A DNA stretch of 63,819 bases from Candidatus Omnitrophota bacterium (GTDB lineage: Bacteria; Omnitrophota; Gorgyraeia; Gygaellales; Profunditerraquicolaceae), in NCBI GenBank assembly GCA_041653955.1, contig JBAZEH010000006.1, positions 764-64,582 on the forward strand, written 5' to 3'. A program made the position numbers and the translations under genes. The notes beneath the pieces were generated by a model, which had not been told where the DNA came from, made no database searches, and saw nothing but the letters and a program-made list of their open reading frames with translations. Shown one piece after another: positions 32,124 to 44,756 of the stretch (position 1 is its first letter; each line of letters opens with the position of its first letter).

Positions 32124-32152
32124 TTGACATAAGGGGGTCTTGCTTGTATACT
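32124..32152 (+). promoter_or_regulatory. Sigma70-like promoter TTGACA-N17-TATACT upstream of the fur-family gene
   Basis: Consensus -35 at 32124-32129 and -10 at 32147-32152. Confidence 0.55.
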
Positions 32153-32154
32153 AT

Positions 32155-32175
32155 TAATGGAAATCATTTTCATTA
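32155..32175. promoter_or_regulatory. Fur-box-like 21-nt palindromic operator (copy 1)
   Basis: TAATGGAAATCATTTTCATTA. The arms match 8 of 10 as an inverted repeat around a central C. AT-rich and Fur-box-like. Begins 3 nt after the -10 element. Confidence 0.55.
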
Positions 32176-32192
32176 ACATATAGGAGAGCAAT

Positions 32193-32663
32193 ATGCGTAA
32201 TAGAGGGGCTTTTGGCCCTCCATGGTGGCACGGTAAGTTCAGGGGATGCGGATACCGGTTGACATCCGGCCGCGAGGCGATCCTTGAACTGTTGTTAAGG
32301 TCTGAAGGCCACCTGAGCGCGGAGGATATTTACGTGAAGATACGCCCCAGATACCCCAACTTGGGCCTTACGACTATTTACCGGACCCTGGATCTTTTGG
32401 CCCATATAGGCATAGTATCCAAGCTTGACTTTGGCGACGGGAGAGCACGGTATGAATTGGCAGAAGGGCCTAAAGGAGCACGCCACCACCATCATCTGGT
32501 ATGCACATCTTGCAACAAGGTGATTGATTACGCCGATTTTATAGACGAAGAGGTAGAATTGTTAAATCAAACCGAAAGGGGCCTGGAGAAAAGATATAAT
32601 TTTAAAATAACTAACCATATTATCCAATTTTACGGTTTATGCCAAAGGTGCAGCAGGAAATAA
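32193..32663 (+). CDS. Fur-family metalloregulator (Fur/Zur/PerR type not resolvable)
   Basis: Winged-helix region (TTIYRTLDLL), HHHHLVC, and CxxC pairs (CTSC, CQRC). Confidence 0.85.
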   Translation: MRNRGAFGPPWWHGKFRGCGYRLTSGREAILELLLRSEGHLSAEDIYVKIRPRYPNLGLTTIYRTLDLLAHIGIVSKLDFGDGRARYELAEGPKGARHHHHLVCTSCNKVIDYADFIDEEVELLNQTERGLEKRYNFKITNHIIQFYGLCQRCSRK

Positions 32664-32686
32664 GCGGCGTATATTTTTTTCTTTAA

Positions 32687-32707
32687 TAATGGAAATGATT
32701 TTCAAAA
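32687..32707. promoter_or_regulatory. Fur-box-like operator (copy 2)
   Basis: TAATGGAAATGATTTTCAAAA, identical to copy 1 at 18 of 21 positions. Lies 20 nt upstream of the first DUF5320 gene. Confidence 0.5.
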
Positions 32708-32727
32708 TATGAAAGGGGGTGTTTGAT

Positions 32728-33096
32728 ATGCCAGGAGGAGATGGAACAGGTCCGATGGGATTAGGTCCTATGACCGGGAGAGCGGCTGGTTATTGCTCCG
32801 GATATTCCGTGCCCGGCTATATAAATCCGATCCCCGGCAGGGGAAGAGGATTTTATGGCCGCGGAGCAGGAAGGGGCCGGCGTAATTGGTATTACGCTAC
32901 CGGGCTTGCGGGTTGGCAAAGGGCTTCAATGGGGATCCCTGCTTTTGGCGGGGCGTATCCTTACGCGCCTGAAATGGATCCGCAACGGGAGGCAGATATC
33001 TTAAAAAGCGAAGCTGACCTTTTAAAAAAGCAGCTGGAAGATATTCAAGCCCGCATTGAGAATTTGGAAAAATCCCAGACAGAGAAGAGTGATTAA
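32728..33096 (+). CDS. DUF5320-like protein (Gly/Arg-rich N-half, coiled-coil C-half)
   Basis: MPGGDGTGPMGLGPMTGR N-terminus, RG-rich segment, C-terminal heptad region EADLLKKQLEDIQARIENLEK. Size fits DUF5320. Confidence 0.65.
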   Translation: MPGGDGTGPMGLGPMTGRAAGYCSGYSVPGYINPIPGRGRGFYGRGAGRGRRNWYYATGLAGWQRASMGIPAFGGAYPYAPEMDPQREADILKSEADLLKKQLEDIQARIENLEKSQTEKSD

Positions 33097-33103
33097 TTGC
33101 TGT

Positions 33104-33144
33104 AGGATGAGGGGGAGGGGAAAGGGACCCTGCCTCCTCATCCT
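33104..33144 (+). other. Intercistronic GC-rich stem-loop
   Basis: AGGATGAGG ... CCTCATCCT (9 bp) with no T-tract. A possible mRNA processing or stability element. Confidence 0.35.
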
Positions 33145-33167: not shown

Positions 33168-33566
33168 ATGCGTATAGCTATATCTACAGATGGTGATTTT
33201 GTGTCTGCTCATTTTGGCAGATGCCCTTCTTTTACCCTTGTTGACATTGAAGACGGCAAGGTAATTAAAAGGACGGAAGTGGCAAACCCGGGTCACCAGC
33301 CGGGGGCTATCCCTGAATTTTTGCATAAGAAAGGCGCCAATTGTATCGTTGCCGGGGGGATGGGGATGCGGGCAACTTCATTTTTTGAAGAATATGGCAT
33401 TAAGGCGATTGTAGGAGTGGAAGGCAAAATTGATGAAGTAATTGAACAGCTTAAAAAAGGAGCCCTTGAGGGCGGCGAGAGCCTCTGTCATCCTGGGGCG
33501 GGCAAGGGGTATGGTTTAGATAAAGAAGAGTGTGACCATCCGCACGAAGAGGATTGCGAACATTAG
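33168..33566 (+). CDS. NifX/NifB-C-terminal-like (dinitrogenase FeMo-cofactor biosynthesis domain) protein with Cys/His-rich tail
   Basis: MRIAISTDGDFVSAHFGRCPSF and CIVAGGMG, typical of the NifX_NifB fold. Tail is CHPGAGKGYGLDKEECDHPHEEDCEH. Confidence 0.8.
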   Translation: MRIAISTDGDFVSAHFGRCPSFTLVDIEDGKVIKRTEVANPGHQPGAIPEFLHKKGANCIVAGGMGMRATSFFEEYGIKAIVGVEGKIDEVIEQLKKGALEGGESLCHPGAGKGYGLDKEECDHPHEEDCEH

Positions 33567-33576: not shown

Positions 33577-33957
33577 ATGAAAATATGCGTTACTTCAGAA
33601 GGAGACAATTTAGATTCTAAGGTAGACCCGCGTTTTGGCAGATGCCAGTATTTTATTATTGCCGATACTGAAACTTCAGGATTTGAAGCTATTAAAAATC
33701 CTAATCTTGAATCAATGGGTGGGGCCGGAATTCAGTCTGCCCAATTAGTTGCTTCTAAGCAAGTTGGGGCTGTGGTTACGGGGAATGTAGGGCCTAATGC
33801 CTTTCAAACATTACAGGCGGCAGGCATAGGAATCTTTACCAATGCCTCAGGCACGGTAAAGGAGGCAATTGAGAAATACAAAAAGGGAGGATTTAAGGTA
33901 GTTTCCGGTCCAAGCGTCGGTTCGCATTTTGGTATGCCGGGCAGGAATAAAAAATAA
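33577..33957 (+). CDS. NifX/NifB-C-terminal-like protein (second paralogue)
   Basis: MKICVTSEG..VDPRFGRCQYFII and VVTGNVGPNA motifs. Confidence 0.8.
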   Translation: MKICVTSEGDNLDSKVDPRFGRCQYFIIADTETSGFEAIKNPNLESMGGAGIQSAQLVASKQVGAVVTGNVGPNAFQTLQAAGIGIFTNASGTVKEAIEKYKKGGFKVVSGPSVGSHFGMPGRNKK

Positions 33958-33966
33958 GGAGTGACC

Positions 33967-34134
33967 ATGGCGGCTAGAGTGGATAGAGAGAAGTGCAGCG
34001 GTTGCGGGGCGTGCCGGGAGATCTGCCCTGTTAACGCAATCAAGATAGAGAACGCTAAAGCGGTAATCAGCGATGATTGCGTGGAATGCGGGGCTTGTGT
34101 AAATCAATGCCCGAATGAGGCGATCTCAATTTAG
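33967..34134 (+). CDS. 2x[4Fe-4S] ferredoxin, 55 aa (absent from supplied ORF track)
   Basis: Hand translation: MAARVDREKCSGCGACREICPVNAIKIENAKAVISDDCVECGACVNQCPNEAISI*. Two CxxCxxCxxxCP motifs and an AAGGAG RBS 5-10 nt upstream. Confidence 0.8.
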   Translation: MAARVDREKCSGCGACREICPVNAIKIENAKAVISDDCVECGACVNQCPNEAISI

Positions 34135-34143: not shown

Positions 34144-35322
34144 ATGAACAGGCGCAGCTATTTTTTTAGTTCGGAATCAGTAGGAGAAGGCCATCCGGAT
34201 AAATTATGCGACCAGATATCAGATGGTGTGTTAGATGAGGTTTTAAGGCTTGATCCCGGCAAAGAGAGGAGCAGGGTTGCCTGTGAAACTTATGTTACTA
34301 TGGGGCTTTTGATCGTCGGAGGTGAAATTACCACTTCCGCCTATATTAATATCCAGAAACTCGTAAGAGAAATCATCAAGAGTATAGGTTATACACACCC
34401 GAAGTATGGCTTTGATTATAAGACTTGCGCCATCGTAAACACCATTAATAGCCAGTCTCCCGATATCGCGCAGGGGGTAAATACCGGAGGGGCAGGGGAC
34501 CAGGGAATTATGTTTGGTTACGCTTGCAACGAGACGAAAGAATACATGCCTCTTCCGATAACGCTCGCGCATAAACTGGTGAAGCGCATGGCTGATGTGC
34601 GCAGGGCTAATATATTAAAATATTTGGGCCCTGATTGTAAATCGCAGGTTACTATAGAATATCACGATAATAAGCCAAAGCGCGTGGATTCAGTTGTGCT
34701 TGCCTGCCAGCATACCGATAATATTCTGGATAAGACAGGCAGGAATATTACCTCAAAGTCGCGCCACGAGCTTATTGATCTTATTGCCAAACCGGTCTTA
34801 AAGGGATTAGTGGATAAAAATACCAAATATTATGTTAATCAGACTGGTAAATTCTTAATCGGCGGGCCGCAATCCGATACCGGGATGACCGGCAGGAAAA
34901 TTATCGTGGATACTTATGGGGGCACTGTTTCACATGGCGGCGGGGCTTTTTCGGGGAAGGACCCTACAAAGGTTGACCGCTCCGCGGCTTATATGTGCCG
35001 TTATATCGCCAAGAATATGGTTGCCGCGGGCCTTGCCGATAGATTCCTTGTCCAGCTGGCTTATGTTATAGGTTACTCGGAGCCGCTGTCTGTTTATGTG
35101 GATACTTACGGTACGGGGAAGTTGCCTAATGAGCAGTTGGTTAAGCTTATTCGCGATAATTTTAATCTTACGCCTAAAGGAATAATAGATTCCCTTAAAC
35201 TGTTGCTACCGGTATATAGAAAGACGGCTTGTTACGGGCATTTCGGCCGCGATGACGCCGGGTTTAACTGGGAATTAACGGATAAGGCACCTGTTTTAAG
35301 AAAGAAAGCTTCAAGGTTATAA
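34144..35322 (+). CDS. metK: S-adenosylmethionine synthase
   Basis: [16 protein letters not shown] and [16 protein letters not shown] motifs. Confidence 0.97.
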
Positions 35323-35343
35323 TTAAAAAAGGAGGTGGTTTGT

Positions 35344-35595
35344 ATGCCGTTTTTTGAACCATTAGAGAAGATGGACCCTAAGCATGTTGATTTAGAAAGA
35401 GCGAGAAAGTCTTTGCGCGAAGAACTTGAGGCGGTTGATTTTTATCAGGAACGGATTGACGCGACTGAAGATGAATCTTTAAAAAAACTCCTCGCGCATA
35501 ATATGAACGAGGAAAAGGAACACGCGGCTATGCTTATGGAGTGGATCAGGAAGAATGATGCTGTGCAGGATAAGATGTTTCAAGAGCATGATTAG
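35344..35595 (+). CDS. Encapsulated-ferritin (EncFtn)-family ferritin-like protein lacking a C-terminal extension
   Basis: EELEAVDFYQERIDATEDESLKKLLAHNMNEEKEHAAMLMEWIRKNDA closely parallels my recollection of the Rhodospirillum EncFtn core (EELEAVDWYDQRVDAS..ILAHNRDEEKEHAAMTLEWLRRNDA). Start set at the ATG behind GGAGG. Confidence 0.72.
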   Translation: MPFFEPLEKMDPKHVDLERARKSLREELEAVDFYQERIDATEDESLKKLLAHNMNEEKEHAAMLMEWIRKNDAVQDKMFQEHD

Positions 35596-35607
35596 GAGGT
35601 GGTTGCT

Positions 35608-35838
35608 ATGCCAAGAGGAGATGGAACAGGGCCTTTAGGCCAGGGGCCGGGTACAGGAAGGGGAAGAGGAATGGGAAGGGGTGCTGGCATGGGACGGATG
35701 GGAGGAAACCGCCCCGGGGCAGGCCCCGGAGGTGCTTGCGTGTGTCCTGCTTGTGGAGAAAGGGTTCCCCATCAAGCCGGGACGCCATGCGCATTGATTA
35801 ATTGCCCTAAATGCGGGGTAAAAATGGTAAGGGAGTAG
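35608..35838 (+). CDS. DUF5320-like protein with C-terminal zinc ribbon
   Basis: MPRGDGTGPLGQGPGTGRGRG N-terminus, paralogous to the 32728 protein. C-terminal CPACG...CPKCG. Confidence 0.65.
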   Translation: MPRGDGTGPLGQGPGTGRGRGMGRGAGMGRMGGNRPGAGPGGACVCPACGERVPHQAGTPCALINCPKCGVKMVRE

Positions 35839-35848: not shown

Positions 35849-36460
35849 TTGGAGAAAGAAGTTTTTGAAAATCACAAGATATATTTAGAAAGGCTTGAAT
35901 TCTACCGGGGTTTTGGTTACGATTTAGAGAAGGAAAGAGATTTTATCCTTGATAAGTCCCTTCCTGTTTCTGAAGAGATCCTGGAAGTCGGAACCGGCAA
36001 GGGCCATTTTGCCCTTGCCTTGGCAAAACGGGGGTATACTTTTGTAAGCATAGATATCTCCCGGCAAGAGCAAGAGATAGCTGCATTGAATTTGCGATAT
36101 TTTGGCCTGGAAAAACAAGCGGCTCTTAGAATTGAAGACGCGGAGCATTTAAGTTTTTCGGGCCAAAGTTTTAATACCATATTTTCTATTAATGTGTTTC
36201 ATCATCTTGAAAAACCGTTAGTGGTTTTAGATGAGATGATCCGTTTGCTGCGGCCTGCCGGAAAGATTATCCTAAGCGATTTTAGCGCCAGGGGGTTAGA
36301 TATCATTAATGCCTGTCATATGCGTGAAGGGCGCAAGCACGATTATTTTAAACATCGTTTAGATGAGGCAAGAGATTATTTCGTTAATAAAGGTTTCAAT
36401 GTTGGAGAGTGCCAAAGCGAAGTCCAGAAAGTAATTATAGCTGAACGAATACAAGGATAA
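35849..36460 (+). CDS. Class I SAM-dependent methyltransferase
   Basis: ILEVGTGKGHFALALA motif I. TTG start, with no upstream in-frame ATG. Confidence 0.75.
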   Translation: MEKEVFENHKIYLERLEFYRGFGYDLEKERDFILDKSLPVSEEILEVGTGKGHFALALAKRGYTFVSIDISRQEQEIAALNLRYFGLEKQAALRIEDAEHLSFSGQSFNTIFSINVFHHLEKPLVVLDEMIRLLRPAGKIILSDFSARGLDIINACHMREGRKHDYFKHRLDEARDYFVNKGFNVGECQSEVQKVIIAERIQG

Positions 36461-36462
36461 AG

Positions 36463-37317
36463 ATGATTATTTCGGTTGCGAGCGGAAAGGGCGGAACAGG
36501 CAAGACTACCATAGCAGTCAATCTCGCCTTATCTATAGATAATGTGCAGTTCCTTGATTGCGATGTTGAAGAACCCAACGCCCATATTTTTCTTAAACCC
36601 CGGATCAATAAGCAGGCCAAAGCGTATATACCCGTTCCGGAGATTGACGAATCTAAGTGCGTTTATTGCGGTAAATGTGCCAAGGTATGTGTTTATAACG
36701 CGATAGCAGTTTTGCCCGGCCAATCCAGAAAAAAGGGGACGATTTTGGTCTTTGAACAGCTTTGCCATGGCTGTGGGGCTTGCAGCGCTCTTTGTCCGGA
36801 AGGAGCGATAAAAGAGGTGAAGAGGGAAATAGGAGTTGTGGAGTTCGGCAATTTCCAAGATATAGAATTTATCCATGGTAAACTCAATATCGGAGAAGCA
36901 ATGTCTCCACCCCTTATCCGGCAGGTCAAAGAGCATATCAACCCTAAAAAAACCGTTATTATTGACGCTCCCCCCGGCACGTCATGCCCGGTAGTGGCTT
37001 CAGTCAAGGGAAGCGATTTCTGTATATTAGTTACTGAACCGACACCCTTCGGTTTAAATGATCTTGTTTTAGCGGTAGAGGTGATAAGGAAACTGAAAAT
37101 TCCTTTTGGAGTCGTAATAAACCGCGCCGACCTGGGAAATAGAAAAACCGAAGAATACTGCAAACAAGAGAATATTTCTGTTTTGATGAGGATACCTTTT
37201 AAAAAAGAAATAGCCATGGCTTATTCCAGGGGTGAGCCTATGGTTAGGGCGTTCCCGGAGTATAAAAAAGATTTCCATGGTCTTTTTAACGCGATCCAGA
37301 ATGGAAAATTTAGTTAA
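36463..37317 (+). CDS. MinD/CooC-superfamily P-loop ATPase with inserted 2x[4Fe-4S] ferredoxin domain (COG1149-type)
   Basis: Deviant Walker A SGKGGTGKTT, CDVEEPN, CVYCGKCAKVC, CHGCGACSALCP and DAPPGTSCPV. Confidence 0.85.
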   Translation: MIISVASGKGGTGKTTIAVNLALSIDNVQFLDCDVEEPNAHIFLKPRINKQAKAYIPVPEIDESKCVYCGKCAKVCVYNAIAVLPGQSRKKGTILVFEQLCHGCGACSALCPEGAIKEVKREIGVVEFGNFQDIEFIHGKLNIGEAMSPPLIRQVKEHINPKKTVIIDAPPGTSCPVVASVKGSDFCILVTEPTPFGLNDLVLAVEVIRKLKIPFGVVINRADLGNRKTEEYCKQENISVLMRIPFKKEIAMAYSRGEPMVRAFPEYKKDFHGLFNAIQNGKFS

Positions 37318-37702
37318 AGATTTTTTAAAACAGAAACGATTTGCCGTAGCCGGTTCTTTTAGAAGCAGGGAAAAGTTCGCTTATAAAATATTAATCAGTT
37401 TGATTGAAAAAGGTTATATGGTTTTTCCTGTTAATCCGCATATTAATGAAGTCGAAGGCAGGGTTTCTTATAAAACTATAAGCGATATTCCTTTTGAGGT
37501 GGATGTGGTTGATATCGTAACTCCCCCCTCCGTAACCGAAGCCATTTTAAAAGAATGCCTGCAAAAGGGGATAAAAAGGGTATGGCTTCAGCCCGGGGCA
37601 GAGAGCCCGGATGCTATCAAGTTTTGCCAGGATAATGATATTAAGGTAATCCACAGCATGTGCGTAATGCTGGAGTCGCTGAAAGAACGGGGGAACCCAT
37701 GA
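37301..37702 (+). CDS. CoA-binding domain protein (YccU/YneT-like)
   Basis: KRFAVAGSFR..KFAYKIL..GYMVFPVNP, typical of the CoA_binding_2 fold. Start set at the ATG giving MENLVKDF. 17-nt overlap with the upstream gene. Confidence 0.75.
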   Translation: MENLVKDFLKQKRFAVAGSFRSREKFAYKILISLIEKGYMVFPVNPHINEVEGRVSYKTISDIPFEVDVVDIVTPPSVTEAILKECLQKGIKRVWLQPGAESPDAIKFCQDNDIKVIHSMCVMLESLKERGNP

Positions 37703-39064: not shown

Positions 39065-39916
39065 ATGAAACAAATTGTGGTTATCAGCGGTAAGGGCGGG
39101 ACGGGTAAAACCGTTATTACGGGCGCGTTTGCCGCCTTAGCGAAAAATAAGGTTATGGCGGATTGCGATGTGGATGCCGCTGACCTGCATTTATTATTAC
39201 AGCCGGAAATAAAAGAACGTCATGATTTCAGGAGCGGTTTAAGCGCCTCGATTGATAAGAAAATATGCCGGAAGTGCGGGAAATGTATTGTTGCCTGCAG
39301 ATTTGATGCTATAAGCCAGGATTTTATAATTGACCCTGTTGCCTGCGAAGGATGCGCTTTTTGCAGCCATATTTGCCCGGCAGGGGCTATAAAGATGGAA
39401 GAAAACCTTGCGGGGGAATGGTTTATTTCCGAAACGCGCTTTGGACCTATGGTGCACGCCAAACTTGGGATCGCTGAAGAGAATTCAGGCAAGCTTGTTT
39501 CTTTGGTTAGAAAAAAGGCAAAAGAGCTGGCGCAAAAGAATAACTGTGATTGGGTGATCATTGATGGCGCCCCGGGCATAGGTTGCCCTGTGATTGCGTC
39601 CCTTTCAGGCATTGATTGTGCGTTAGTGGTAACCGAGCCTACGCTATCCGGCATGCACGATGCATTAAGGGTCATAGAAGTAACCGGGCATTTTAATGTT
39701 CCTGCGCGGCTGGTAATTAATAAATACGATTTAAACCCGGATATGTCAAAGATAATAGAAGACCATTGTGCGAAAAGCGGAATCCCGCTGATCGGAAAGA
39801 TCGGGTTTGATAAGGCTGTGGTGGAAGCTATGGTAGAGGGCAAAACTATTATGGAACATAAGGATACGGCAGCTAAGGATGAGATTCGCAGGATTTGGGA
39901 AAAATTGAAGGCTTAA
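39065..39916 (+). CDS. MinD/CooC-superfamily P-loop ATPase with inserted ferredoxin domain (second paralogue)
   Basis: SGKGGTGKT, DCDVDAADL, CRKCGKCIVAC, CEGCAFCSHICP and DGAPGIGCPV. Confidence 0.85.
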   Translation: MKQIVVISGKGGTGKTVITGAFAALAKNKVMADCDVDAADLHLLLQPEIKERHDFRSGLSASIDKKICRKCGKCIVACRFDAISQDFIIDPVACEGCAFCSHICPAGAIKMEENLAGEWFISETRFGPMVHAKLGIAEENSGKLVSLVRKKAKELAQKNNCDWVIIDGAPGIGCPVIASLSGIDCALVVTEPTLSGMHDALRVIEVTGHFNVPARLVINKYDLNPDMSKIIEDHCAKSGIPLIGKIGFDKAVVEAMVEGKTIMEHKDTAAKDEIRRIWEKLKA

Positions 39917-39928: not shown

Positions 39929-40918
39929 ATGGATAGCCGGGATATTCACGTATTAAAATATTTTTCATCGTTTGTCAGCGTCTCCAACGGGCAAGTAATC
40001 AATATTACCGAGCCGGTAATGACTTTTTGCCCTTTGGCAAAACATTTATATAAGGATTTTGGCGGCATCCGGGGCGATGACAGAGAAGCCATTAAGAGCG
40101 CTGTTAAAAGGGCAATTGAATCAAAAATAAAAGACCACGGTTTTTTTACCGAAAAGAGGAATATTTCATATGGTGGTATTTCAATACCATATGGTGCTTC
40201 GGAGATGATCAGTTTTGCGTTAAGAAAAGGCGTTATAGACGCGGCAGTTGTAGTTTGTGAAGGGGCGGGGACGGTTATCGTAGATAGGCCGGAAATTATC
40301 CAGGGTATAGGCGCCCGGATGAATAGTTTATTGTTAACTTCCCCTATTAAAGGGATTATAAACAGGCTCCGGTCCGCCGGTTGCCGGGTGGTATTTGAAA
40401 ACGCGCTTATTGACCAGGCTTTAGGGGCCAGGGAGGCAGTAAGGGCTGGATATAAGGCTATTGCCGTTACTGTAAGCGGCCATTCTGCGGCAGATTTAAA
40501 GGTATTGCGTTTATTAGAGGCAGAAAGCATAGCTGCAATTACCTCTTTAGCGGTGTGCACGACCGGTATCTCTAAAGATAAGATCGGCATGATACGCGAT
40601 TACGCTGATCTGGCGTGGAGTTGCGCTTCTTTTGATGTGCGCCGGATAATAGGGCCTTTGGCCAGATACCAGCTTTCCCTGCAAATACCCGTTTTTGTTT
40701 TGACTAAAAAAGGGACAGATTTTGTTTCGGCGTATGCTAATGATGAGGAAATTATAAGAAAATTAGACGAAACAAAACAATACCTTTTTTCGAATGATCC
40801 GGGCGGAAAAGCTGTTTATTTAGGGGATTTTAAAGCGTTTATCAGCGAGTCCCGGCTGCCGGTTAAGGCCAACAAAGAGCCCAGCTTCGCGGACGAGAAT
40901 AAATGCGTTCCCGCGTAA
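39929..40918 (+). CDS. Conserved hypothetical protein, possibly DUF2099 / methanogenesis-marker-8-like
   Basis: Clear 329-aa ORF. FCPLAKH, ASEMISFALRKGVIDAAVVVCEGAGTVI and IQGIGARM resemble my memory of DUF2099. The family call is tentative. Confidence 0.45.
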   Translation: MDSRDIHVLKYFSSFVSVSNGQVINITEPVMTFCPLAKHLYKDFGGIRGDDREAIKSAVKRAIESKIKDHGFFTEKRNISYGGISIPYGASEMISFALRKGVIDAAVVVCEGAGTVIVDRPEIIQGIGARMNSLLLTSPIKGIINRLRSAGCRVVFENALIDQALGAREAVRAGYKAIAVTVSGHSAADLKVLRLLEAESIAAITSLAVCTTGISKDKIGMIRDYADLAWSCASFDVRRIIGPLARYQLSLQIPVFVLTKKGTDFVSAYANDEEIIRKLDETKQYLFSNDPGGKAVYLGDFKAFISESRLPVKANKEPSFADENKCVPA

Positions 40919-40945
40919 ATAGGTAATATTTTGGAAAGTATTCAT

Positions 40946-41341
40946 ATGCAAAATTCAAGCAACAAGGAAGATACTGCCGGATATCCTGAAGAGGTTGTCA
41001 GCCTTTTAAATAGTAAAAAGTTTTTTGGTAGAATGAATGACCCTGCAGGCTCATCATATTTAAAGGGGCCTTGCGGTGATTCTATGGAGTTTTACCTGGT
41101 GATAGCGGATAAGAAGATCACCGATATTAAATATTATACGGAAGGGTGCGGAGCCACAAGGGCGTGTGCCGCGATGGTAGCGCATTTGGTTTGCGGGAAA
41201 ACCGTCAATGAGGCTTTGAATATTTCAGCTGGGGATATTATCAAGCGGTTAAAGGGACTACCGGAAGACCATCTGCATTGTTCGATACTTGCAGTAAGCA
41301 CTCTTTACAGGGCGATAGCGGACTACCTGCTTAAAAAATAA
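40946..41341 (+). CDS. IscU/NifU N-terminal-type Fe-S cluster scaffold protein
   Basis: GPCGDSMEFYL, GCGATRAC and HCSILAV supply the three scaffold Cys residues in the expected spacing. Confidence 0.8.
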   Translation: MQNSSNKEDTAGYPEEVVSLLNSKKFFGRMNDPAGSSYLKGPCGDSMEFYLVIADKKITDIKYYTEGCGATRACAAMVAHLVCGKTVNEALNISAGDIIKRLKGLPEDHLHCSILAVSTLYRAIADYLLKK

Positions 41342-41366: not shown

Positions 41367-42185
41367 ATGGATGAACAAGATCTGACAAAACAGGAAAAAC
41401 GGCTTAAAGAGAGGATATTTAAAATAAGGTATCCTTTGATCGTTATGAGCGGCAAGGGAGGCGTGGGTAAGTCAACGGTGGCGGTAAATCTCGCGTATGC
41501 ATTGTCTTTGGACGGTAAAAGAGTCGGGATATTGGATATTGATCTACACGGGCCTAATATTGCCAAGATGCTTGGTATTGAAAAACATTCGCTTTATGGC
41601 TTTGAGTCCGGGATCCAGCCGGTTGAGGTATCTGATAATTTGAAAGCCGTGAGTGTTGCGCTGTCCGGGTGTGATTCTAATGAGCCGATTATCTGGCGCG
41701 GGCCCATGAAAGCGGCAGTTATAAAACAATTCCTGGCCGATGTGAATTGGGGAGAATTAGATTACCTGGTTATAGATTCTCCGCCGGGTACGGGAGATGA
41801 GCCGTTAAGCGCCTGTCAGTTGATCCCTAATGTCTCCGGGGCCATTATAGTAACTACGCCTCAGGATGTAGCGGTTTTAGACGCGCGTAAAAGCGTTAAA
41901 TTTGCCAAAGAATTAAATATTCCGGTTGTCGGCGTGATTGAAAATATGAGTGGTTTTACATGCCCGCGCTGCGGCAATGAGGTAGATATTTTTAAACGGG
42001 GAGGCGGAGAAAGGGCGGCGGAAGAATTACAGGTTCCATTTTTAGGGAGGGTGCCTTTCCAGCCGGAATTTGTGGAATATTCGGATAAGGGCACTCCTTT
42101 TATGTCTTTTAAGAATAAATCAAAATCCGCCGAAGCGTTTATGGAGATTGTAGTTAAAATAAAAGAATTCGTCGGTGATAAATAA
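41367..42185 (+). CDS. Mrp/ApbC/NBP35-family Fe-S cluster carrier ATPase
   Basis: SGKGGVGKSTVAVNLA, DSPPGTGDE, and CPRCG after ENMSGF. Confidence 0.9.
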   Translation: MDEQDLTKQEKRLKERIFKIRYPLIVMSGKGGVGKSTVAVNLAYALSLDGKRVGILDIDLHGPNIAKMLGIEKHSLYGFESGIQPVEVSDNLKAVSVALSGCDSNEPIIWRGPMKAAVIKQFLADVNWGELDYLVIDSPPGTGDEPLSACQLIPNVSGAIIVTTPQDVAVLDARKSVKFAKELNIPVVGVIENMSGFTCPRCGNEVDIFKRGGGERAAEELQVPFLGRVPFQPEFVEYSDKGTPFMSFKNKSKSAEAFMEIVVKIKEFVGDK

Positions 42186-42985
42186 TGGAGACGGTATTTA
42201 AATATATTTATGGTCCTGTTCCATCATGGAGGCTAGGGAGCTCTATGGGGATAGATCTGCTCTCACAGGATGAAAAAGTCTGTAATTTTGATTGCGTTTA
42301 TTGCCAGATAGGGCCGACTAAGAATTATACATCCGAAAGAAAGATTTATATCCCGGTTGGGGATGTTATTGAAGAATTAAAGAAATTGCCAGATACACGC
42401 ATAGATTATTTTACTTTTTCCGGCAGGGGGGAGCCTGCCCTGGCAGCTAATTTAGGCGAAGCGATAAAAGCGGTAAAGTTGCTGCGCAAGGGGCCGGTGG
42501 CGGTTTTAACGAACAGCTCTTTGATGGCGCAGGATGAAGTAAGAAAAGAGCTTATCCTGGCGGATTTTGTTGTTGCCAAGCTGGATGCCTGTTCCGCGGA
42601 GTCCTTGCAGGGTATTAACAGGAGCGCCGAGGGCGTAGAGTTTGCAGATATCTTGGACGGCATAAAGAAATTCAGGAATGATTACGTTGGGCGGATGGCG
42701 TTGCAGATAATGTTTATTGAGGATAATAAAAATGAAGTTAATAAGTTGATTTATCTGGCAAATTATATCAAGCCGGATGAGGTCCAGATCAATACGCCGT
42801 TAAGAAGATGCGATATTGACCCGCTGTCAAAAGAAACGATCTTAAAGATAAAGGCGAACTTTGCCTCTTCCCTCAAGACGGTTGACGTAGTTTCCGTTTA
42901 TGACGATAAGGCGTTACAGGATATAGTTCCTATCAGTGATGGGGACACCTTAAAAAGAAGAGGCAAAAGATATAAAAAAATATGA
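42185..42985 (+). CDS. Radical SAM protein
   Basis: YGPVPSWRLGSSMGIDL followed by the CNFDCVYCQ (CxxxCxxC) motif. Confidence 0.8.
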   Translation: METVFKYIYGPVPSWRLGSSMGIDLLSQDEKVCNFDCVYCQIGPTKNYTSERKIYIPVGDVIEELKKLPDTRIDYFTFSGRGEPALAANLGEAIKAVKLLRKGPVAVLTNSSLMAQDEVRKELILADFVVAKLDACSAESLQGINRSAEGVEFADILDGIKKFRNDYVGRMALQIMFIEDNKNEVNKLIYLANYIKPDEVQINTPLRRCDIDPLSKETILKIKANFASSLKTVDVVSVYDDKALQDIVPISDGDTLKRRGKRYKKI

Positions 42986-43401
42986 TAGAAAAAACTATTT
43001 ATTATCATGATACTGACGCGATAGGGATCGCGTATTACAGCGCGTATTTGAAGATCCTTGAAGAAGGCAGAACTCATTTTTTCCAATCAAGAGGGTTATC
43101 GGTAAAGGGCCTGCACGAGCAGGGTACTTTCTTTGTTATCAAGGAATTAAACGTTAAATATAAAAGCCCCGCAAGATTTGGGTATATTGTCATATGCGAT
43201 TCTATTGTCAGTAAAATCACGGAAGCGCAAATATTTTTTTCGCAGAAAATATACAACAAAGAAGATAATAGCATTTTAGCAACCGCGGAAATAACTTTAG
43301 TTATTACGGATAAATATTGCCATCCTATCGCGATCCCCGAAACTGTCAGGGCAATATCCGGGGCGCGGAGCCCGAAGGGGAAAAATCCGGTAGTGGCATA
43401 A
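42982..43401 (+). CDS. Acyl-CoA thioesterase, YbgC/4HBT hotdog family
   Basis: YYHDTDAIGIAYYSAYLKILEEGRTHFF, typical of the 4HBT active-site region. ATGA overlap with the upstream gene. Confidence 0.75.
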   Translation: MIEKTIYYHDTDAIGIAYYSAYLKILEEGRTHFFQSRGLSVKGLHEQGTFFVIKELNVKYKSPARFGYIVICDSIVSKITEAQIFFSQKIYNKEDNSILATAEITLVITDKYCHPIAIPETVRAISGARSPKGKNPVVA

Positions 43402-43432
43402 ACCGCAGGCTATTTCATCAAATGATAAGGCT

Positions 43433-44332
43433 ATGAAAACTTATTTGGATTGTGTGCCTTGTTTTTTCAGACAAGCGCTTGAGGGCGCGCGGATCGTTAA
43501 AGCGTCCCCAAAACAACAGAAACAGATTATAGATGATTTTGCCAGAAAAATACCGAAAATTTCTCTTCAATCCAGCCCTCCTGAAATAGCCAGGCTTGGG
43601 TACGCTCTTTTAAAAAATATAAGCCCCGGCGGAGACCCTTATAAAGATATAAAGCAAAAAAGCAACCGCATAGCCTTACGGTTATTGGGAAAGCTGCGGG
43701 ATAAGGTCGGCCGTTCCAGGGACAGGTTATTGACGGCGCTGGAATTAGCCATAGCAGGCAATATCATAGATTTCGGCGTTAAGAATAATTTGGATATAAA
43801 AGCGGAGTTAAAAAGGATACTCGCGCAAGAAGATAAAAATATCCATCAAGAATCCATATTTCATTATGCGGGATTCAGGCGGGCATTAAAAAAAGCAAGA
43901 AATATCTTATATCTGGCCGATAATGCCGGAGAGGTAGTATTTGACCGGGTTTTAATAGAAGAGATCAAAATGGAGTATCCGGATAAAGAGATTTATTACG
44001 CCGTTAAGGCAAGGCCTGTGATAAACGATGCGTTATTTGAAGACGCGAAAGCCTGCGGGATTGATAAGGCGGCACGGGTTATATCTAACGGCACGGGAGC
44101 CCCGGGGACAATACTTACCTTATGTTCCAGAAAGTTTAAGAGGATCTACAGGAGCGCTGATATGATAATCAGTAAGGGGCAGGGTAATTTTGAGTCTTTA
44201 TCGCAAGAAAAAAGGCCTATTTTTTTCTTATTTATGGTGAAATGCCCTGTGGTAGCTAAAGAGACCGGCTGTAAAATCGGGAATATAGTGTTATTTTATA
44301 ATTTAAAAAATAATGGGGACACTAAGAATTAG
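43433..44332 (+). CDS. DUF89 (ARMT1-like damage-control phosphatase) family protein
   Basis: N-terminal LDCVPCFFRQAL, DNAGEVVFD and KGQGNFE motifs. Confidence 0.75.
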   Translation: MKTYLDCVPCFFRQALEGARIVKASPKQQKQIIDDFARKIPKISLQSSPPEIARLGYALLKNISPGGDPYKDIKQKSNRIALRLLGKLRDKVGRSRDRLLTALELAIAGNIIDFGVKNNLDIKAELKRILAQEDKNIHQESIFHYAGFRRALKKARNILYLADNAGEVVFDRVLIEEIKMEYPDKEIYYAVKARPVINDALFEDAKACGIDKAARVISNGTGAPGTILTLCSRKFKRIYRSADMIISKGQGNFESLSQEKRPIFFLFMVKCPVVAKETGCKIGNIVLFYNLKNNGDTKN

Positions 44333-44756
44333 CGAATATCCTGATCCTGTTTTGAGGAATAAAAACGCCTCAATAGAGCGGATCACTGAAAGTGAAATAA
44401 AGCTATTTGAAGAAATGCTGTTTACTATGCGGCATTTTGCGGGAATAGGCTTAGCCGCTCCCCAGGTCGGCATCGCCAGAAAATTGATAGTTGCGGATAT
44501 CGGGGAAGGAGCGGTCAGGCTGGCCAATCCGGTAATCCTTAAGAATAAAGGATCGGATAAAATGGAAGAAGGCTGTTTGAGCATCCCGGGAATAGGTGTT
44601 GTTATAGAGAGGCCGGATGAAGTTATTGTAAGCGGATTAAATGAAGAAGGCAGGGTTATTGAATTCAAGGCGCAGGGGCTTTTCGCAAGAGTACTGCAGC
44701 ATGAAATAGACCACCTGAACGGTAAGTTGATCATAGATTACCGGATCCTGCTATGA
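44313..44756 (+). CDS. def: Peptide deformylase
   Basis: YPDPVLR, GIGLAAPQVG, EGCLSIPG and QHEIDHLNG motifs. Confidence 0.92.
   Translation: MGTLRISEYPDPVLRNKNASIERITESEIKLFEEMLFTMRHFAGIGLAAPQVGIARKLIVADIGEGAVRLANPVILKNKGSDKMEEGCLSIPGIGVVIERPDEVIVSGLNEEGRVIEFKAQGLFARVLQHEIDHLNGKLIIDYRILL

What the first reader, a model, noticed from the sequence alone, without database searches (positions are those of the whole stretch)
32124..44756. Fur-box-fronted 20-ORF array: candidate uncharacterised iron-responsive metallocluster assembly/delivery system
Seen: from the Fur-family gene (32193) to def (44756), 20 ORFs run on one strand with spacings of -20 to +71 nt, which looks operon-like. Motif-recognisable parts:
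- two DUF5320-like proteins
- two NifX/NifB-C-terminal-like small proteins
- a 55-aa 2x[4Fe-4S] ferredoxin
- MetK
- an EncFtn-type ferroxidase-like protein
- a SAM methyltransferase
- two MinD/CooC-type ATPases carrying an inserted double CxxCxxCxxxC ferredoxin domain plus a DxPPGxxCP motif
- a CoA-binding protein and a CoADR/Nox-type flavoprotein
- a DUF2099-like protein
- an IscU-type scaffold
- an Mrp/ApbC carrier
- a radical SAM enzyme
- a thioesterase
- DUF89
Established knowledge and memory: the core trio (DUF5320, NifX-like, ferredoxin-insert ATPase) recurs as a neighbourhood in anaerobic bacteria and archaea. I know of no experimentally defined function for it. Inference: here the trio is physically joined to generic Fe-S scaffold and carrier genes, an iron-handling ferritin-like protein and SAM chemistry, and sits behind iron-regulator-type operators. 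That suggests a dedicated ATP-driven pathway that builds, holds or inserts an Fe-S or other complex metal cluster. No nitrogenase, hydrogenase structural gene or other obvious client enzyme is in the window.
Basis: partly seen in the sequence, partly recalled or inferred. Interest (0 to 1): 0.85.

Follow-up and report, generated by a model that had tools for sequence, protein, structure and literature searches.

The report
Fur-controlled orange-protein (ORP) iron-sulfur gene cluster
This gene array is an Omnitrophota version of the "orange protein" (ORP) gene cluster already studied in Desulfovibrio, here placed under an iron-regulator-type repressor and joined to iron-sulfur scaffold genes, which points to iron-sulfur storage or delivery in anaerobes and not to a wholly unknown system.

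Summary
All 20 ORFs and every family call were confirmed. A palindromic Fur-family operator occurs twice, after the promoter and between fur and the next gene, with 0.02 matches expected by chance.

The interpretation needs three corrections.
1. The "core trio" is not unstudied. It is the ORP complex of Desulfovibrio vulgaris: paired ferredoxin-insert ATPases Orp3/4, a small Fe-S protein Orp5, the NifX-like orange protein Orp8, and MrpORP. Its function is still unresolved.
2. One-strand, tight spacing is the norm here. The window starts at dnaN-gyrBA, and the array runs on for ten more genes to 49396.
3. Only part of the array is co-conserved. In 80 loci from more than 15 phyla:
- The ATPase pair is always present.
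- NifX-like genes are in 72, DUF5320 in 42, Mrp in 38 and U-type scaffolds in 31.
- MBL, DUF89, a COG0731 radical SAM, TrmO and Fur are each in 8-17.
- MetK, EncFtn, DUF2099 and the thioesterase are in none.

New leads:
- The Fur operator is conserved in Omnitrophota, WOR-3 and Clostridia.
- NifX-DUF5320 fusions mimic the IssA thioferrate-storage protein.

Most likely function: an iron-regulated, ATP-driven system that holds and delivers Fe-S.

The parts
32124..32152 (+). Sigma-70-type promoter TTGACA-17-TATACT
   Evidence: Best match in 17 kb, 11 of 12 positions. It lies just after two tRNA genes.
32155..32175 (.). Operator 1, a 9-1-9 palindrome TAATGGAAATCATTTTCATTA overlapping the predicted transcription start
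   Evidence: 0.02 expected. The same site lies before fur in L001, L002, L021, L084-L086, L013 and L009.
32193..32663 (+). Fur-family repressor with two CxxC pairs and an HHHHLVC motif
   Evidence: PF01475, 110 bits. Best solved relative is Fur 9IRE at 5.5e-34, ahead of PerR. NCBIfam Fur scores 137 bits, below its cut-off of 220.
32687..32707 (.). Operator 2, between fur and DUF5320a
   Evidence: A site sits at the same position in L001, L002 (7540, a weak site with 4 mismatches), L013, L021 and L084-L086.
32728..33096 (+). DUF5320a: a Gly/Arg/aromatic-rich cationic N-terminal part followed by an acidic coiled coil
   Evidence: PF17253, 105 bits. Residues 1-80 have pI 10.2, 22 Gly, 8 Arg, 12 aromatic residues and 1 Cys.
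33168..33566 (+). NifXa: a free-standing version of the C-terminal Di-Nase domain of MrpORP
   Evidence: PF02579, 81 bits. NCBIfam MrpORP positions 264-360, 98 bits. Closest solved relatives are TM1816 and PH0822. The SAHFGRC, PGHQPGAIP and CDH motifs can be read in the sequence.
33577..33957 (+). NifXb: an orange-protein (Orp8) / MTH1175 / IssA-type domain
   Evidence: Best solved relative is D. gigas ORP 2WFB at 7e-23, then MTH1175.
33961..34134 (+). Small 2x[4Fe-4S] ferredoxin
   Evidence: Present in L002, L084 and L086 and in 7-14 of 80 loci.
34144..35322 (+). MetK, probably an insertion and not a dedicated part
   Evidence: TIGR01034, 544 bits. Absent from all other Omnitrophota loci examined and from 80/80 diverse loci.
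35335..35595 (+). EncFtn-like ferritin-like protein without a targeting tail, an accessory limited to this lineage
   Evidence: PF22277, 106 bits. The NCBIfam match covers only 1-80 of 114 positions. Also in L001 and L086, and in 0 of 80 diverse loci.
35599..35838 (+). DUF5320b: a Gly/Arg-rich N-terminal part plus a 6-Cys C-terminal domain, the candidate Orp5 equivalent
   Evidence: PF17253, 26.9 bits. Cys at 47, 49, 52, 64, 69 and 72. Fused to NifXb in L009.
35849..36460 (+). Class-I SAM methyltransferase
   Evidence: Directly upstream of ATPase1 in most Omnitrophota loci examined (L001, L002, L021, L024, L084, L086, though not the minimal L085 or L005) and in L004, L046 and L065.
36463..37317 (+). 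ATPase1 (Orp3/4-type): a Mrp/MinD-fold ATPase with an inserted 2x[4Fe-4S] domain
   Evidence: At least 964 50%-identity clusters at E<=1e-30.
37301..37702 (+). CoA-binding protein (accessory)
   Evidence: PF13380, 115 bits. Found in 4 of 80 loci.
37699..39048 (+). CoADR / NADH oxidase / CoA-persulfide-reductase-type flavoprotein (accessory)
   Evidence: Also in L001 and L084. Found in 4-9 of 80 loci.
39065..39916 (+). ATPase2, the paralogous partner of ATPase1
   Evidence: An ATPase2-type gene accompanies ATPase1 in 80 of 80 loci.
39929..40918 (+). DUF2099 / methanogenesis-marker-8-like protein (accessory)
   Evidence: PF09872, 242 bits. TIGR03275, 213 bits, against a cut-off of 233. Also in L002 and L084, and in 0 of 80 diverse loci.
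40931..41341 (+). U-type Fe-S scaffold (NifU_N) with the Cys48/Asp50/Cys73/His116/Cys117 ligand set
   Evidence: Found in 31 of 80 loci.
41367..42185 (+). Mrp/ApbC-type carrier, equivalent to the N-terminal domain of MrpORP (Orp9)
   Evidence: NF041136, 360 bits over positions 3-249 of 365. Found in 38 of 80 loci.
42185..42985 (+). COG0731-type radical SAM enzyme, substrate unknown
   Evidence: Found in 14-17 of 80 loci, often directly after ATPase2.
42982..43401 (+). YbgC-type thioesterase, seen only in the window
   Evidence: Absent from all other loci examined.
43433..44332 (+). DUF89/ARMT1-type metal-dependent phosphatase
   Evidence: Found in 15 of 80 loci.
44313..45230 (+). def and an Rrf2-family regulator, probably passengers
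   Evidence: Missing in L085 and L086, where MBL follows the cluster directly. Found in 1-2 of 80 loci.
45227..46604 (+).
   Evidence: MBL is in 17-18 of 80 loci. The membrane protein is in L065 and L080 and in the Omnitrophota loci L001, L002, L005, L024 and L086 (for the unnamed 210-aa ORF after MBL in L086).
47975..49396 (+). Second methyltransferase, a DsrE-like protein and a TrmO-like protein, which end the co-directional array
   Evidence: TrmO is in 8 of 80 loci and lies between the two ATPase genes in L050. In L061 and L065 TrmO sits just upstream of ATPase1, while the radical SAM gene (and in L065 also the methyltransferase) lies between the two ATPases. MTase2 and DsrE follow the minimal cluster in L085.

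Best explanation
The array is an expanded Omnitrophota version of the ORP (orange protein) gene cluster, controlled by a dedicated Fur-family repressor.

Shown:
- The regulator gene is preceded and followed by a conserved palindromic operator. The first copy overlaps the predicted transcription start of a strong sigma-70-type promoter.
- The core genes are two paralogous Mrp/MinD-fold ATPases with inserted 2x[4Fe-4S] domains (Orp3/4-type), an orange-protein-type NifX-like protein (Orp8-type), a second NifX-like protein plus a separate Mrp that together equal a split MrpORP (Orp9), two DUF5320 proteins, and a U-type scaffold.

Inferred mechanism:
- With its metal bound (probably Fe2+), the Fur-like protein sits on the operators and shuts the promoter. 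When the metal is scarce the cluster is transcribed.
- The NifX-like proteins and the cationic Gly/Arg-rich DUF5320 proteins hold an anionic iron-sulfide species or Fe-S clusters. In other lineages these two are fused into one IssA-like protein.
- The U-type scaffold and Mrp build [4Fe-4S] clusters and pass them on. In Desulfovibrio, MrpORP was shown in vitro to load the Orp3-Orp4-Orp8 complex.
- The two ATPases form an ATP-dependent heterodimer that receives clusters and hands them on.

Other genes:
- The radical SAM enzyme, DUF89, MBL hydrolase, methyltransferases, TrmO-like protein and membrane protein are recurrent accessory parts of unknown chemistry.
- EncFtn, CoADR, the CoA-binding protein and DUF2099 are accessories of this lineage.
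- MetK, the thioesterase, def and Rrf2 are most likely passengers in a tightly packed leading-strand region.
For: Identity with ORP:
- NifXb's best solved relative is the D. gigas orange protein 2WFB, at 7e-23.
- Mrp scores 360 bits on NCBIfam MrpORP positions 3-249, and NifXa scores 98 bits on positions 264-360.
- Both ATPases carry 8 ferredoxin-type Cys and the deviant Walker A motif. This matches the published description of Orp3/4 (PMC6345978).

ATPase fold:
- Profile comparison with the window's Mrp gives probability 99.3 and E 2.5e-20 over the full length.
- Comparison with NifH matches only the P-loop.
- Foldseek's top hits are archaeal MinD, ApbC and ATPase-type HypB.

Co-conservation in 80 loci from more than 15 bacterial and archaeal phyla:
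- ATPase pair 80, NifX-like 72, DUF5320 42, Mrp 38 and U-type scaffold 31.
- MBL 17, DUF89 15, radical SAM 14, TrmO 8 and Fur 8.
- Controls: def 1, Rrf2 0-1 and MetK 0.
- All 36 scaffold homologues keep the cluster ligands.

Link to iron:
- The operator is significant and conserved at the same two positions in seven Omnitrophota loci, WOR-3 and Clostridia.
- The regulator is closest to true Fur.
- DtxR-type repressors and FeoB each occur in 4 further loci.

Link to IssA:
- About 20 of 80 loci have NifXb with a (GRGM)n tail.
- 6 of 10 tested proteins pass Pfam cut-offs for both Nitro_FeMo-Co and DUF5320.
- The composition of DUF5320a matches that of the IssA tail.
Against: - No function of the ORP complex has been established. 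The Desulfovibrio authors lean towards a role in cell division, and they see Mrp as a maturase of the ATPases rather than the ATPases as carriers.
- A Fur-repressed, iron-starvation-induced operon fits an assembly system better than a storage system.
- The operator is not the canonical Fur box, so the metal sensed is unknown.
- There is no cysteine desulfurase or client enzyme in the window.
- The equivalence of DUF5320b with Orp5 was not tested against a Desulfovibrio sequence.
- The resemblance between DUF5320 and the IssA tail is compositional, not demonstrated homology.
- Co-transcription was not tested.
Confidence: 0.55

Rival explanations
1. One reading: all 20 genes from fur to def form one dedicated, previously unstudied pathway that assembles or inserts a metal cluster.
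For: - The genes are tightly packed and co-directional behind one strong promoter, and no terminators stand out above chance.
- Many of the products bind Fe-S or use SAM.
Against: - The spacing and strand are the same across the whole window, and the array continues for ten more genes.
- MetK, EncFtn, DUF2099 and the thioesterase are in 0 of 80 diverse loci and vary among Omnitrophota.
- The core has been studied as the ORP complex.
Confidence: 0.1
2. The system builds a complex or heterometallic cluster, such as a NifB-co-like or Mo/Cu-sulfide cluster, for an unidentified client. In this view a radical SAM enzyme and methyltransferases supply a SAM-derived ligand. The NifX-like proteins act as carriers and the ATPases as insertases.
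For: - It parallels the nitrogenase pathway of NifU, NifB (radical SAM plus a NifX domain), NifX and NifH (established knowledge).
- The orange protein binds a Mo-Cu-S cluster.
- SAM-related genes recur: the radical SAM enzyme in 14-17 of 80 loci, methyltransferases, TrmO-like proteins, and AdoMet decarboxylase in L001 and L002.
- In L061 and L065 the radical SAM gene sits between the two ATPase genes.
Against: - The radical SAM gene is absent from most loci.
- It gives no NifB family match. Its structural matches are generic, with NifB at rank 27 and TM about 0.55 on a low-confidence model.
- There is no NifEN- or NifDK-like gene and no Mo or W transport gene in the window.
- The ATPases resemble Mrp, not NifH.
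Confidence: 0.15
3. The ORP proteins are MinD-like positioning factors used in cell division or polar organisation, and their Fe-S clusters serve only as redox sensors.
For: - Desulfovibrio orpR mutants have morphological defects, MrpORP localises to a cell pole, and Orp3/4 are reported to have MinD-like C-terminal amphipathic helices.
- Foldseek's top hits are MinD proteins.
Against: - There is no minC or minE in any neighbourhood examined.
- The consistent partners are Fe-S scaffolds, carriers and NifX-like cluster binders.
- The regulators are Fur or DtxR types in 12-13 of 80 loci, and FeoB is adjacent in 4.
Confidence: 0.1

Closest known systems
[quoted passage not shown]
   Same: - Paired MinD/Mrp-type ATPases, each with two [4Fe-4S] ferredoxin motifs.
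- An orange-protein-type Di-Nase protein.
- A small Cys-rich Fe-S protein.
- An Mrp carrier plus a Di-Nase domain.
- Restricted to anaerobes.
   Different: - It is one co-directional array, not two divergent operons.
- It is controlled by a Fur-family repressor and a sigma-70-type promoter, not OrpR and sigma-54.
- MrpORP is split into two genes that lie 8 kb apart.
- It has extra genes: a U-type scaffold, a radical SAM enzyme, DUF89, MBL, methyltransferases, EncFtn, CoADR and DUF2099.
IssA iron-sulfur storage protein of Pyrococcus furiosus (PMC5524996)
   Same: - An IPR003731/NifX-like domain of the MTH1175/ORP clade.
- A cationic, Gly/Arg/aromatic-rich segment of the same composition as the IssA tail.
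   Different: - In the window the tail-like segment is on separate DUF5320 proteins, one with a coiled coil and one with a 6-Cys domain. It is fused to the NifX-like domain only in other lineages.
- Thioferrate binding has not been tested.
- IssA has not been described together with paired ATPases.
Mrp/ApbC/Nbp35-Cfd1 P-loop Fe-S scaffolds and carriers
   Same: - The same fold, with the deviant Walker A motif (SGKGGTGKT) and DxDxxxPN and DxPPG motifs.
- Two paralogues that probably form a heterodimer, as Nbp35-Cfd1 does.
   Different: - There is no CxxC bridging motif.
- Instead there is an inserted 2x[4Fe-4S] ferredoxin domain and a conserved Cys after the DxPPG motif.
- No structure has been solved for this subfamily.
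Nitrogenase cofactor assembly line (NifU, NifB, NifX/NafY, NifH, NifEN)
   Same: The combination of a U-type scaffold, a radical SAM enzyme, NifX-like carriers and a SIMIBI-class ATPase.
   Different: - The radical SAM enzyme is not NifB-like.
- There is no NifEN or NifDK.
- The ATPases align with NifH only over the P-loop.
Fur-repressed Fe-S assembly operons such as E. coli suf (established knowledge)
   Same: A Fur-family operator overlaps the promoter of an Fe-S handling operon.
   Different: - The operator sequence differs from the Fur consensus, matching at 9 of 19 positions.
- The regulator is encoded as the first gene of the cluster.
- The gene content is unrelated to SufABCDSE.

Membership tests
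ORP complex / orp gene cluster | Two paralogous MinD/Mrp-type ATPases, each with two [4Fe-4S] ferredoxin motifs (Orp3, Orp4) | tested here: met
   Pfam CbiA/ParA plus Fer4 in both. The 8 Cys, SGKGGTGKT and DxPPGxxC are invariant or nearly so in alignment A1. The two share 34-36% identity.
ORP complex / orp gene cluster | A single-domain orange protein (Orp8) of the Di-Nase/IPR003731 family | tested here: met
   NifXb against D. gigas ORP 2WFB gives E 7e-23 over residues 2-113.
ORP complex / orp gene cluster | A small Fe-S protein (Orp5) that binds [2Fe-2S] | tested here: inconclusive
   DUF5320b is 79 aa with 6 Cys, and it lies next to the ATPases in many loci. No Desulfovibrio Orp5 sequence was available for comparison.
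MrpORP (NCBIfam NF041136) | One polypeptide with an Mrp P-loop domain fused to a C-terminal Di-Nase domain, scoring at least 450 bits | tested here: not met
   Mrp scores 360 bits over positions 3-249 only, and NifXa scores 98 bits over positions 264-360. Both halves are present, but as separate genes.
ORP complex / orp gene cluster | Two divergent operons under sigma-54 and OrpR | tested here: not met
   The window has a single array behind a sigma-70-type promoter with Fur-type operators. Sigma-54 activators are found in 15 of 80 other loci.
ORP complex / orp gene cluster | Physical complex of the Orp proteins | not testable with these tools
   This needs pull-down experiments or multi-chain structure prediction.
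IssA-type Fe-S storage protein | An IPR003731 domain of the MTH1175/IssA clade | tested here: met
   NifXb against MTH1175 1EO1 gives E 4e-20.
IssA-type Fe-S storage protein | A cationic Gly/aromatic-rich tail on the same polypeptide | tested here: not met
   NifXb ends about 15 residues after the domain. A tail-like sequence is on DUF5320a/b instead. Fusions exist in other loci.
IssA-type Fe-S storage protein | Binds thioferrate and forms nanoparticles | not testable with these tools
   This needs Mossbauer or EXAFS spectroscopy, or electron microscopy.
Fur (ferric uptake regulator sensu stricto) | FUR domain with a structural Cys4 site and a His-rich sensing site | tested here: met
   PF01475, 110 bits. 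CTSC, CQRC and HHHH are read in the sequence and align with Fur 9IRE.
Fur (ferric uptake regulator sensu stricto) | Reaches an NCBIfam equivalog cut-off, and its operator matches the canonical Fur box | tested here: not met
   The best NCBIfam match is Bacillus-type Fur at 137 bits, below the cut-off of 220. The operator matches 9 of 19 positions of GATAATGATAATCATTATC (my own alignment).
U-type Fe-S scaffold (IscU/NifU N-terminal domain) | Three Cys plus Asp and His cluster ligands | tested here: met
   Cys48, Asp50, Cys73, His116 and Cys117 are kept in 35-36 of 36 homologues. NCBIfam scores are below the equivalog cut-offs, at 96 against 188.
Encapsulated ferritin (EncFtn) | Ferritin-like domain plus a C-terminal targeting peptide and an encapsulin shell gene nearby | tested here: not met
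   The domain is present at 106 bits. The match stops at position 80 of 114, at 94 bits against a cut-off of 125. No shell gene was found among the ORFs of the window that were scanned.
NifB-type cofactor radical SAM | Match to the NifB family | tested here: not met
   NifB is not among the NCBIfam matches. The structural similarity is generic.

The most novel reading that the evidence does not exclude
ORP-type clusters may encode an ATP-driven machine that stores and releases iron sulfide, an anaerobe's counterpart of ferritin, found across anaerobic Bacteria and Archaea including Asgard lineages. They comprise paired ferredoxin-insert ATPases, NifX-like and DUF5320 proteins, a U-type scaffold and Mrp. 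In this reading the NifX-like domain together with the DUF5320 cationic module forms a split IssA that holds a thioferrate-like polymer. The ATPase heterodimer, with IscU and Mrp, converts that polymer into [4Fe-4S] clusters on demand, under control of Fur, DtxR or redox regulators.
Probability: 0.25. Interest if true: 0.8.

Novelty: new variant of a known kind. Interest (0 to 1): 0.55.

Why it matters
Fe-S protein biogenesis in strict anaerobes is poorly understood. The ORP system is widespread, with at least 964 protein clusters at 50% identity spread over both prokaryotic domains, and it still has no assigned function.

This analysis contributes three things:
- In several phyla the cluster is wired to a Fur-family regulator with a conserved operator.
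- Its least-known component, DUF5320, is the detachable equivalent of the IssA tail.
- It travels with a U-type scaffold and Mrp.

Together these shift the working hypothesis from cell division towards iron-sulfur storage and trafficking, and they give concrete experiments. For the window itself the result is sobering. It holds a variant of a known system, not a new one, and several of the 20 genes are probably passengers.

Tried and rejected
- Exact look-up of the window's ATPase found no record.
- The founding ORP paper (PMC3133258) is not held. I therefore could not check which synteny it had already reported, nor obtain Desulfovibrio Orp sequences.
- Literature searches for DUF5320 and DUF2099 returned nothing relevant. 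A search for COG1149 gave only tangents.
- NifH-like reductase idea: profile comparison matched only the P-loop, so I dropped it in favour of an Mrp-like ATPase.
- Promoter and terminator scans inside the array gave counts no higher than shuffled sequence, so they say nothing about sub-operons.
- Rfam found only the two tRNAs. There is no SAM riboswitch before metK.
- DUF2099 and the radical SAM enzyme have no solved relatives by sequence.
- The AlphaFold model of the radical SAM enzyme was poor (pLDDT 65) and gave only generic radical SAM matches. The JGI label "wyosine synthetase" is therefore neither supported nor excluded.
- The ATPase model was good (pLDDT 87) but showed only the MinD/ApbC/HypB fold.
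- C. difficile CD2169, a single ferredoxin-insert ATPase next to hcp, changes expression in a fur mutant table. It is a different arrangement, and I did not pursue it.

Full report
**What is in the window**

From 32193 to 44756 there are 20 ORFs on the + strand.
- Fur.
- Two DUF5320 proteins. The second scores 26.9 bits, against a cut-off of 27.
- Two Nitro_FeMo-Co (NifX-like) proteins.
- A small 2x[4Fe-4S] ferredoxin.
- MetK.
- An EncFtn-like protein.
- A class-I methyltransferase.
- Two CbiA/ParA ATPases with inserted Fer4 domains.
- A CoA_binding_2 protein.
- A CoADR/Nox-type flavoprotein.
- DUF2099.
- A NifU_N scaffold.
- Mrp.
- A radical SAM enzyme.
- A YbgC-type thioesterase.
- DUF89/ARMT1.
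- def.

With sensible start codons the gaps run from -20 to +71 nt.

Upstream, after V-type ATPase genes and two tRNA genes, lies the best sigma-70-type promoter match of the region, TTGACA-17-TATACT at 32124-32152. It is followed directly by the palindrome TAATGGAAATCATTTTCATTA at 32155-32175. A second copy sits at 32687-32707, between fur and the first DUF5320 gene. Chance predicts 0.02 such matches in the window.

**Context that changes the reading**

The window begins with dnaN, gyrB and gyrA. Almost every gene from position 9 to 49396 is on the + strand, and GC skew is positive throughout. The median gap between the upstream housekeeping genes is -1 nt, against 9 nt in the array. So a single strand with small gaps is simply how this genome is built near its origin.

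The array also does not end at def. It continues with Rrf2, an MBL-fold hydrolase, a 219-aa membrane protein, a cupin, HypA, thioredoxin, a DnaJ-domain protein, a second methyltransferase, a DsrE-like protein and a TrmO-like protein. It ends at a convergent gene at 49398.

The organism is a member of Candidatus Omnitrophota. The first ATPase is 82-88% identical to proteins of many Omnitrophota MAGs.

**What the core is**

That work exists. [quoted passage not shown]
- Orp3 and Orp4, MinD-like proteins each with two [4Fe-4S] ferredoxin motifs.
- Orp5, related to a small [2Fe-2S] protein.
- Orp8, the orange protein, with a Di-Nase/NifX-like fold.
- Orp9, also called MrpORP, an Mrp domain fused to a Di-Nase domain.

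What has been shown for it:
- The proteins co-purify.
- MrpORP binds Fe-S clusters on both of its domains and transfers clusters to apo-Orp3-Orp4-Orp8 in vitro.
- MrpORP sits at a cell pole.
- The genes are switched on by the sigma-54 activator OrpR at low redox potential.

The function is still described as unclear, with cell division as one hypothesis (PMC6345978; PMC8359166).

Direct tests link the window to this system:
- NifXb's best solved relative is the D. gigas orange protein 2WFB (E 7e-23), followed by MTH1175.
- The window's Mrp scores 360 bits on NCBIfam MrpORP over positions 3-249.
- NifXa scores 98 bits on positions 264-360 of the same model.
- NifXa also carries the PxHxPG and CDH motifs described for that domain.

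So the window encodes a split MrpORP. I could not obtain Desulfovibrio Orp3/4/5 sequences, so those equivalences rest on matching descriptions, not on alignment.

**The ATPases**

An alignment of 24 diverse family members shows these invariant or nearly invariant features:
- The deviant Walker A motif SGKGGTGKT.
- DCDVEEPN.
- Eight ferredoxin-type cysteines.
- DxPPGTSCP.

Profile comparison aligns the family over its full length with the window's Mrp (probability 99.3, E 2.5e-20). With NifH it aligns only over the P-loop.

The AlphaFold model (pLDDT 86.8) is closest to archaeal MinD, ApbC and ATPase-type HypB, with TM about 0.6. No solved structure contains the ferredoxin insert.

The family is large, with 964 clusters at 50% identity at E<=1e-30. 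It includes fused double ATPases of about 600 residues. That fits an obligate heterodimer of the two paralogues.

**Which genes travel together**

A scan of one genome per species with the ATPase alignment returned 80 loci. They come from Planctomycetota, Omnitrophota, Chloroflexota, Desulfobacterota, Bacillota, WOR-3, Zixibacteria, Acidobacteriota, Ignavibacteria, Aminicenantes, Eisenbacteria and Armatimonadota. They also come from Bathyarchaeia, several methanogen orders, ANME-1, Thermoplasmatota, Altiarchaeota, Thor- and Heimdallarchaeota.

I searched the window's proteins against all ORFs of these loci and counted hits on the same strand, within 8 kb and at 40 bits or more:

| Family | Loci out of 80 |
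|---|---|
| Second ATPase paralogue | 80 |
| NifX-like | 72 |
| DUF5320 | 42 |
| Mrp | 38 |
| U-type scaffold | 31 |
| MBL hydrolase | 17 |
| DUF89 | 15 |
| Radical SAM | 14 |
| TrmO-like | 8 |
| Fur | 8 |
| Ferredoxin | 7 |
| Methyltransferase | 5 |
| CoADR | 4 |

Unrelated low-copy genes from the same window serve as controls. def, DnaJ and thioredoxin each appear once, and Rrf2 not at all under these filters (1 of 80 unfiltered). MetK, EncFtn, DUF2099 and the thioesterase do not appear at all. Many contigs are short, so the counts are lower bounds.

All 36 scaffold homologues keep the three Cys, Asp and His ligands.

In one Syntrophobacterales locus (L050) the TrmO-like gene lies between the two ATPase genes. 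In L061 and in Smithella (L065) the radical SAM gene lies between them, joined in L065 by the methyltransferase. In those two loci the TrmO-like gene, and in L065 the membrane protein too, sit just upstream of ATPase1. Gene content is therefore kept although gene order is not.

An unbiased clustering of all ORFs in the 80 loci added further recurrent neighbours:
- A Cys-rich Zn_ribbon_8 protein, in 26 loci.
- DUF134 HTH proteins, in 20.
- Sigma-54 activators, in 15.
- DUF364/DUF4213, in 10.
- CGGC-domain proteins, in 7.
- FeoB, in 4.
- DtxR-type repressors, in 4.

**Within Omnitrophota**

Five long loci fetched with the ATPase (L001, L002, L084, L085, L086) and three from the genome scan (L005, L021, L024) were examined. 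Those that reach far enough upstream share the core order Fur - DUF5320 - NifX - NifX - ... - ATPase1 - ... - ATPase2.
- The minimal form (L085) continues directly with MBL, the second methyltransferase and DsrE.
- EncFtn, CoADR, DUF2099, IscU, Mrp, the radical SAM enzyme and DUF89 come and go.
- MetK and the thioesterase are found only in the window.
- def and Rrf2 are missing from L085 and L086.

The functional unit is therefore best described in three layers:
- A core of the regulator, DUF5320, NifX-like proteins, the ATPase pair, the scaffold and Mrp.
- Recurrent accessories: the radical SAM enzyme, DUF89, MBL, methyltransferases, TrmO-like protein and membrane protein.
- Passengers.

**Regulation**

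The operator is found before fur in all seven Omnitrophota loci that include the region. A second copy lies between fur and DUF5320, with at most 3 mismatches in six of them and a weaker 4-mismatch site in L002. It is also found:
- At both positions in a WOR-3 genome (L013).
- Before fur in a Clostridia genome (L009).
- More weakly, before fur in a Eubacteriales genome (L031).

The regulator is closest to true Fur proteins. Its best solved relative is 9IRE at 5.5e-34, ahead of PerR. The best NCBIfam match is Bacillus-type Fur, though below the cut-off.

By my own alignment the operator shares only 9 of 19 positions with the classical Fur box. It is a Fur-family-type palindrome, and the metal it responds to is not established.

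The first operator overlaps the predicted transcription start, which implies repression by the metal-bound protein and expression under scarcity. That step is inferred. Different lineages use Fur, DtxR, sigma-54 activators or DUF134 proteins. About one locus in six carries an iron-type regulator or FeoB. This ties the system to iron in lineages far from Desulfovibrio.

**DUF5320 and IssA**

[quoted passage not shown] It consists of an IPR003731 (NifX-like) domain and a 70-residue tail with these properties (PMC5524996):
- It is cationic, glycine- and aromatic-rich.
- It has one Cys.
- Its pI is 10.7.
- It is proposed to wrap the anionic polymer.
- MTH1175 belongs to the same clade.

The window's proteins compare as follows:
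- DUF5320a residues 1-80 contain 22 Gly, 8 Arg, 12 aromatic residues, 8 Pro and 1 Cys. The pI is 10.2, and an acidic coiled coil follows.
- DUF5320b has a Gly/Arg-rich half (pI 12) followed by six cysteines.

In about 20 of the 80 loci the NifXb-type protein carries a (GRGM)n tail, usually with the coiled coil. Of ten such proteins tested, eight match both Nitro_FeMo-Co and DUF5320 in Pfam, six of them above the cut-off. In a Clostridia locus the fused tail is of the Cys-rich DUF5320b type.

DUF5320 is therefore a module that is either fused to the ORP-type NifX-like domain or encoded next to it. The fused form has the architecture of IssA. That it binds an iron-sulfide species is an inference from composition. 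I found no paper that makes this link or that describes the ATPases as neighbours of IssA homologues.

**Most likely mechanism**

I read the cluster as an iron-regulated system for holding and delivering Fe-S.
- Holding: the NifX-like and DUF5320 proteins hold Fe-S or iron-sulfide species.
- Building and passing on: the U-type scaffold and Mrp build and pass on [4Fe-4S] clusters.
- Transfer: the Mrp-like ATPase heterodimer, itself loaded with four [4Fe-4S] clusters, couples ATP binding and hydrolysis to receiving or releasing clusters.

Some lineage-specific accessories would fit this, though that is speculation:
- The EncFtn-like protein has ferroxidase residues but no targeting tail, and no shell gene was found among the ORFs scanned.
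- The CoADR/CoA-persulfide-reductase-type flavoprotein is closest to Archaeoglobus NoxA-3 and Pyrococcus CoADR.
- They could supply Fe(III) and sulfide. This parallels the sulfur regulon of P. furiosus, in which a CoADR-type sulfur reductase and IssA rise together (my own knowledge).

Points against this reading:
- A starvation-induced operon suits assembly better than storage.
- There is no cysteine desulfurase or client enzyme nearby.
- The Desulfovibrio work sees Mrp as a maturase of the ATPases.

**Rivals**

- A pathway for a complex, SAM-derived cluster remains possible because SAM-related genes recur: the radical SAM enzyme, methyltransferases, TrmO-like proteins, and AdoMet decarboxylase in two Omnitrophota loci. 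However, the radical SAM enzyme is a generic COG0731 member with no NifB signal. It is also absent from most loci.
- A MinD-like role in cell division is not supported by any neighbour.

**Verdict**

It is wrong that the system is unstudied, wrong on its boundaries, and wrong to count every gene as a member. It is a new variant of a known kind of system whose function is still open. The Fur wiring and the DUF5320-IssA link are the useful new leads.

Noticed in passing
window 9-6206: dnaN, gyrB and gyrA open the window, and nearly all genes up to 49396 are on the + strand with positive GC skew. The window therefore lies next to the replication origin, on the leading strand.
   Followed up: partly
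window 46971-47342, 57775-58887, 59086-60177: The hydrogenase maturation genes hypA and hypD are present, along with a HypF protein that has only the C-terminal Kae1-like domains (370 aa). No hydrogenase structural gene was seen among the ORFs scanned.
   Followed up: no
window 39929-40918: A bacterial homologue of methanogenesis marker protein 8 (DUF2099) scores 213 bits, against the NCBIfam cut-off of 233. It has no literature and no solved relative. It sits after ATPase2 in three Omnitrophota loci and is replaced by DUF169 in L001.
   Followed up: partly
window 35335-35595: An EncFtn-like protein lacks the C-terminal targeting region, and no encapsulin shell gene was found among the ORFs of the window that were scanned. 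It may be a free-standing ferroxidase-like decamer.
   Followed up: partly
L004-L083 (for example L061 3963-4220): A small Zn_ribbon_8 protein with a Cys-rich C-terminus occurs in 26 of 80 ORP-type loci. It is not part of the described ORP complex. L001 has one after def.
   Followed up: partly
proteins P0122-P0129: Natural proteins of about 600 residues hold two ferredoxin-insert ATPase units in tandem. They would serve as ready-made models of the heterodimer.
   Followed up: no
L084 6005-7770: One Omnitrophota relative has two Fur paralogues separated by a PTPS gene, just upstream of the cluster. This suggests the ORP-linked Fur is a dedicated paralogue.
   Followed up: no
window 45945-46604: A 219-aa membrane protein with several His motifs has no Pfam family. 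It is conserved next to ORP clusters in Omnitrophota, Smithella (228 bits) and Phycisphaerales (241 bits). It may be a metal permease.
   Followed up: partly
window 11859-13097 and 51537-53066: Two long ORFs (412 and 509 aa) match no Pfam family at E<=1e-5.
   Followed up: no
L001 8697-9149, L002 17128-17487: AdoMet decarboxylase genes lie inside or near the cluster in two Omnitrophota relatives, where the window has MetK. SAM-related genes are a recurring but variable theme.
   Followed up: no
window 14049-14513: A SLOG cluster4 family protein (136 bits) sits just before the carbamoyl-phosphate synthase genes.
   Followed up: no
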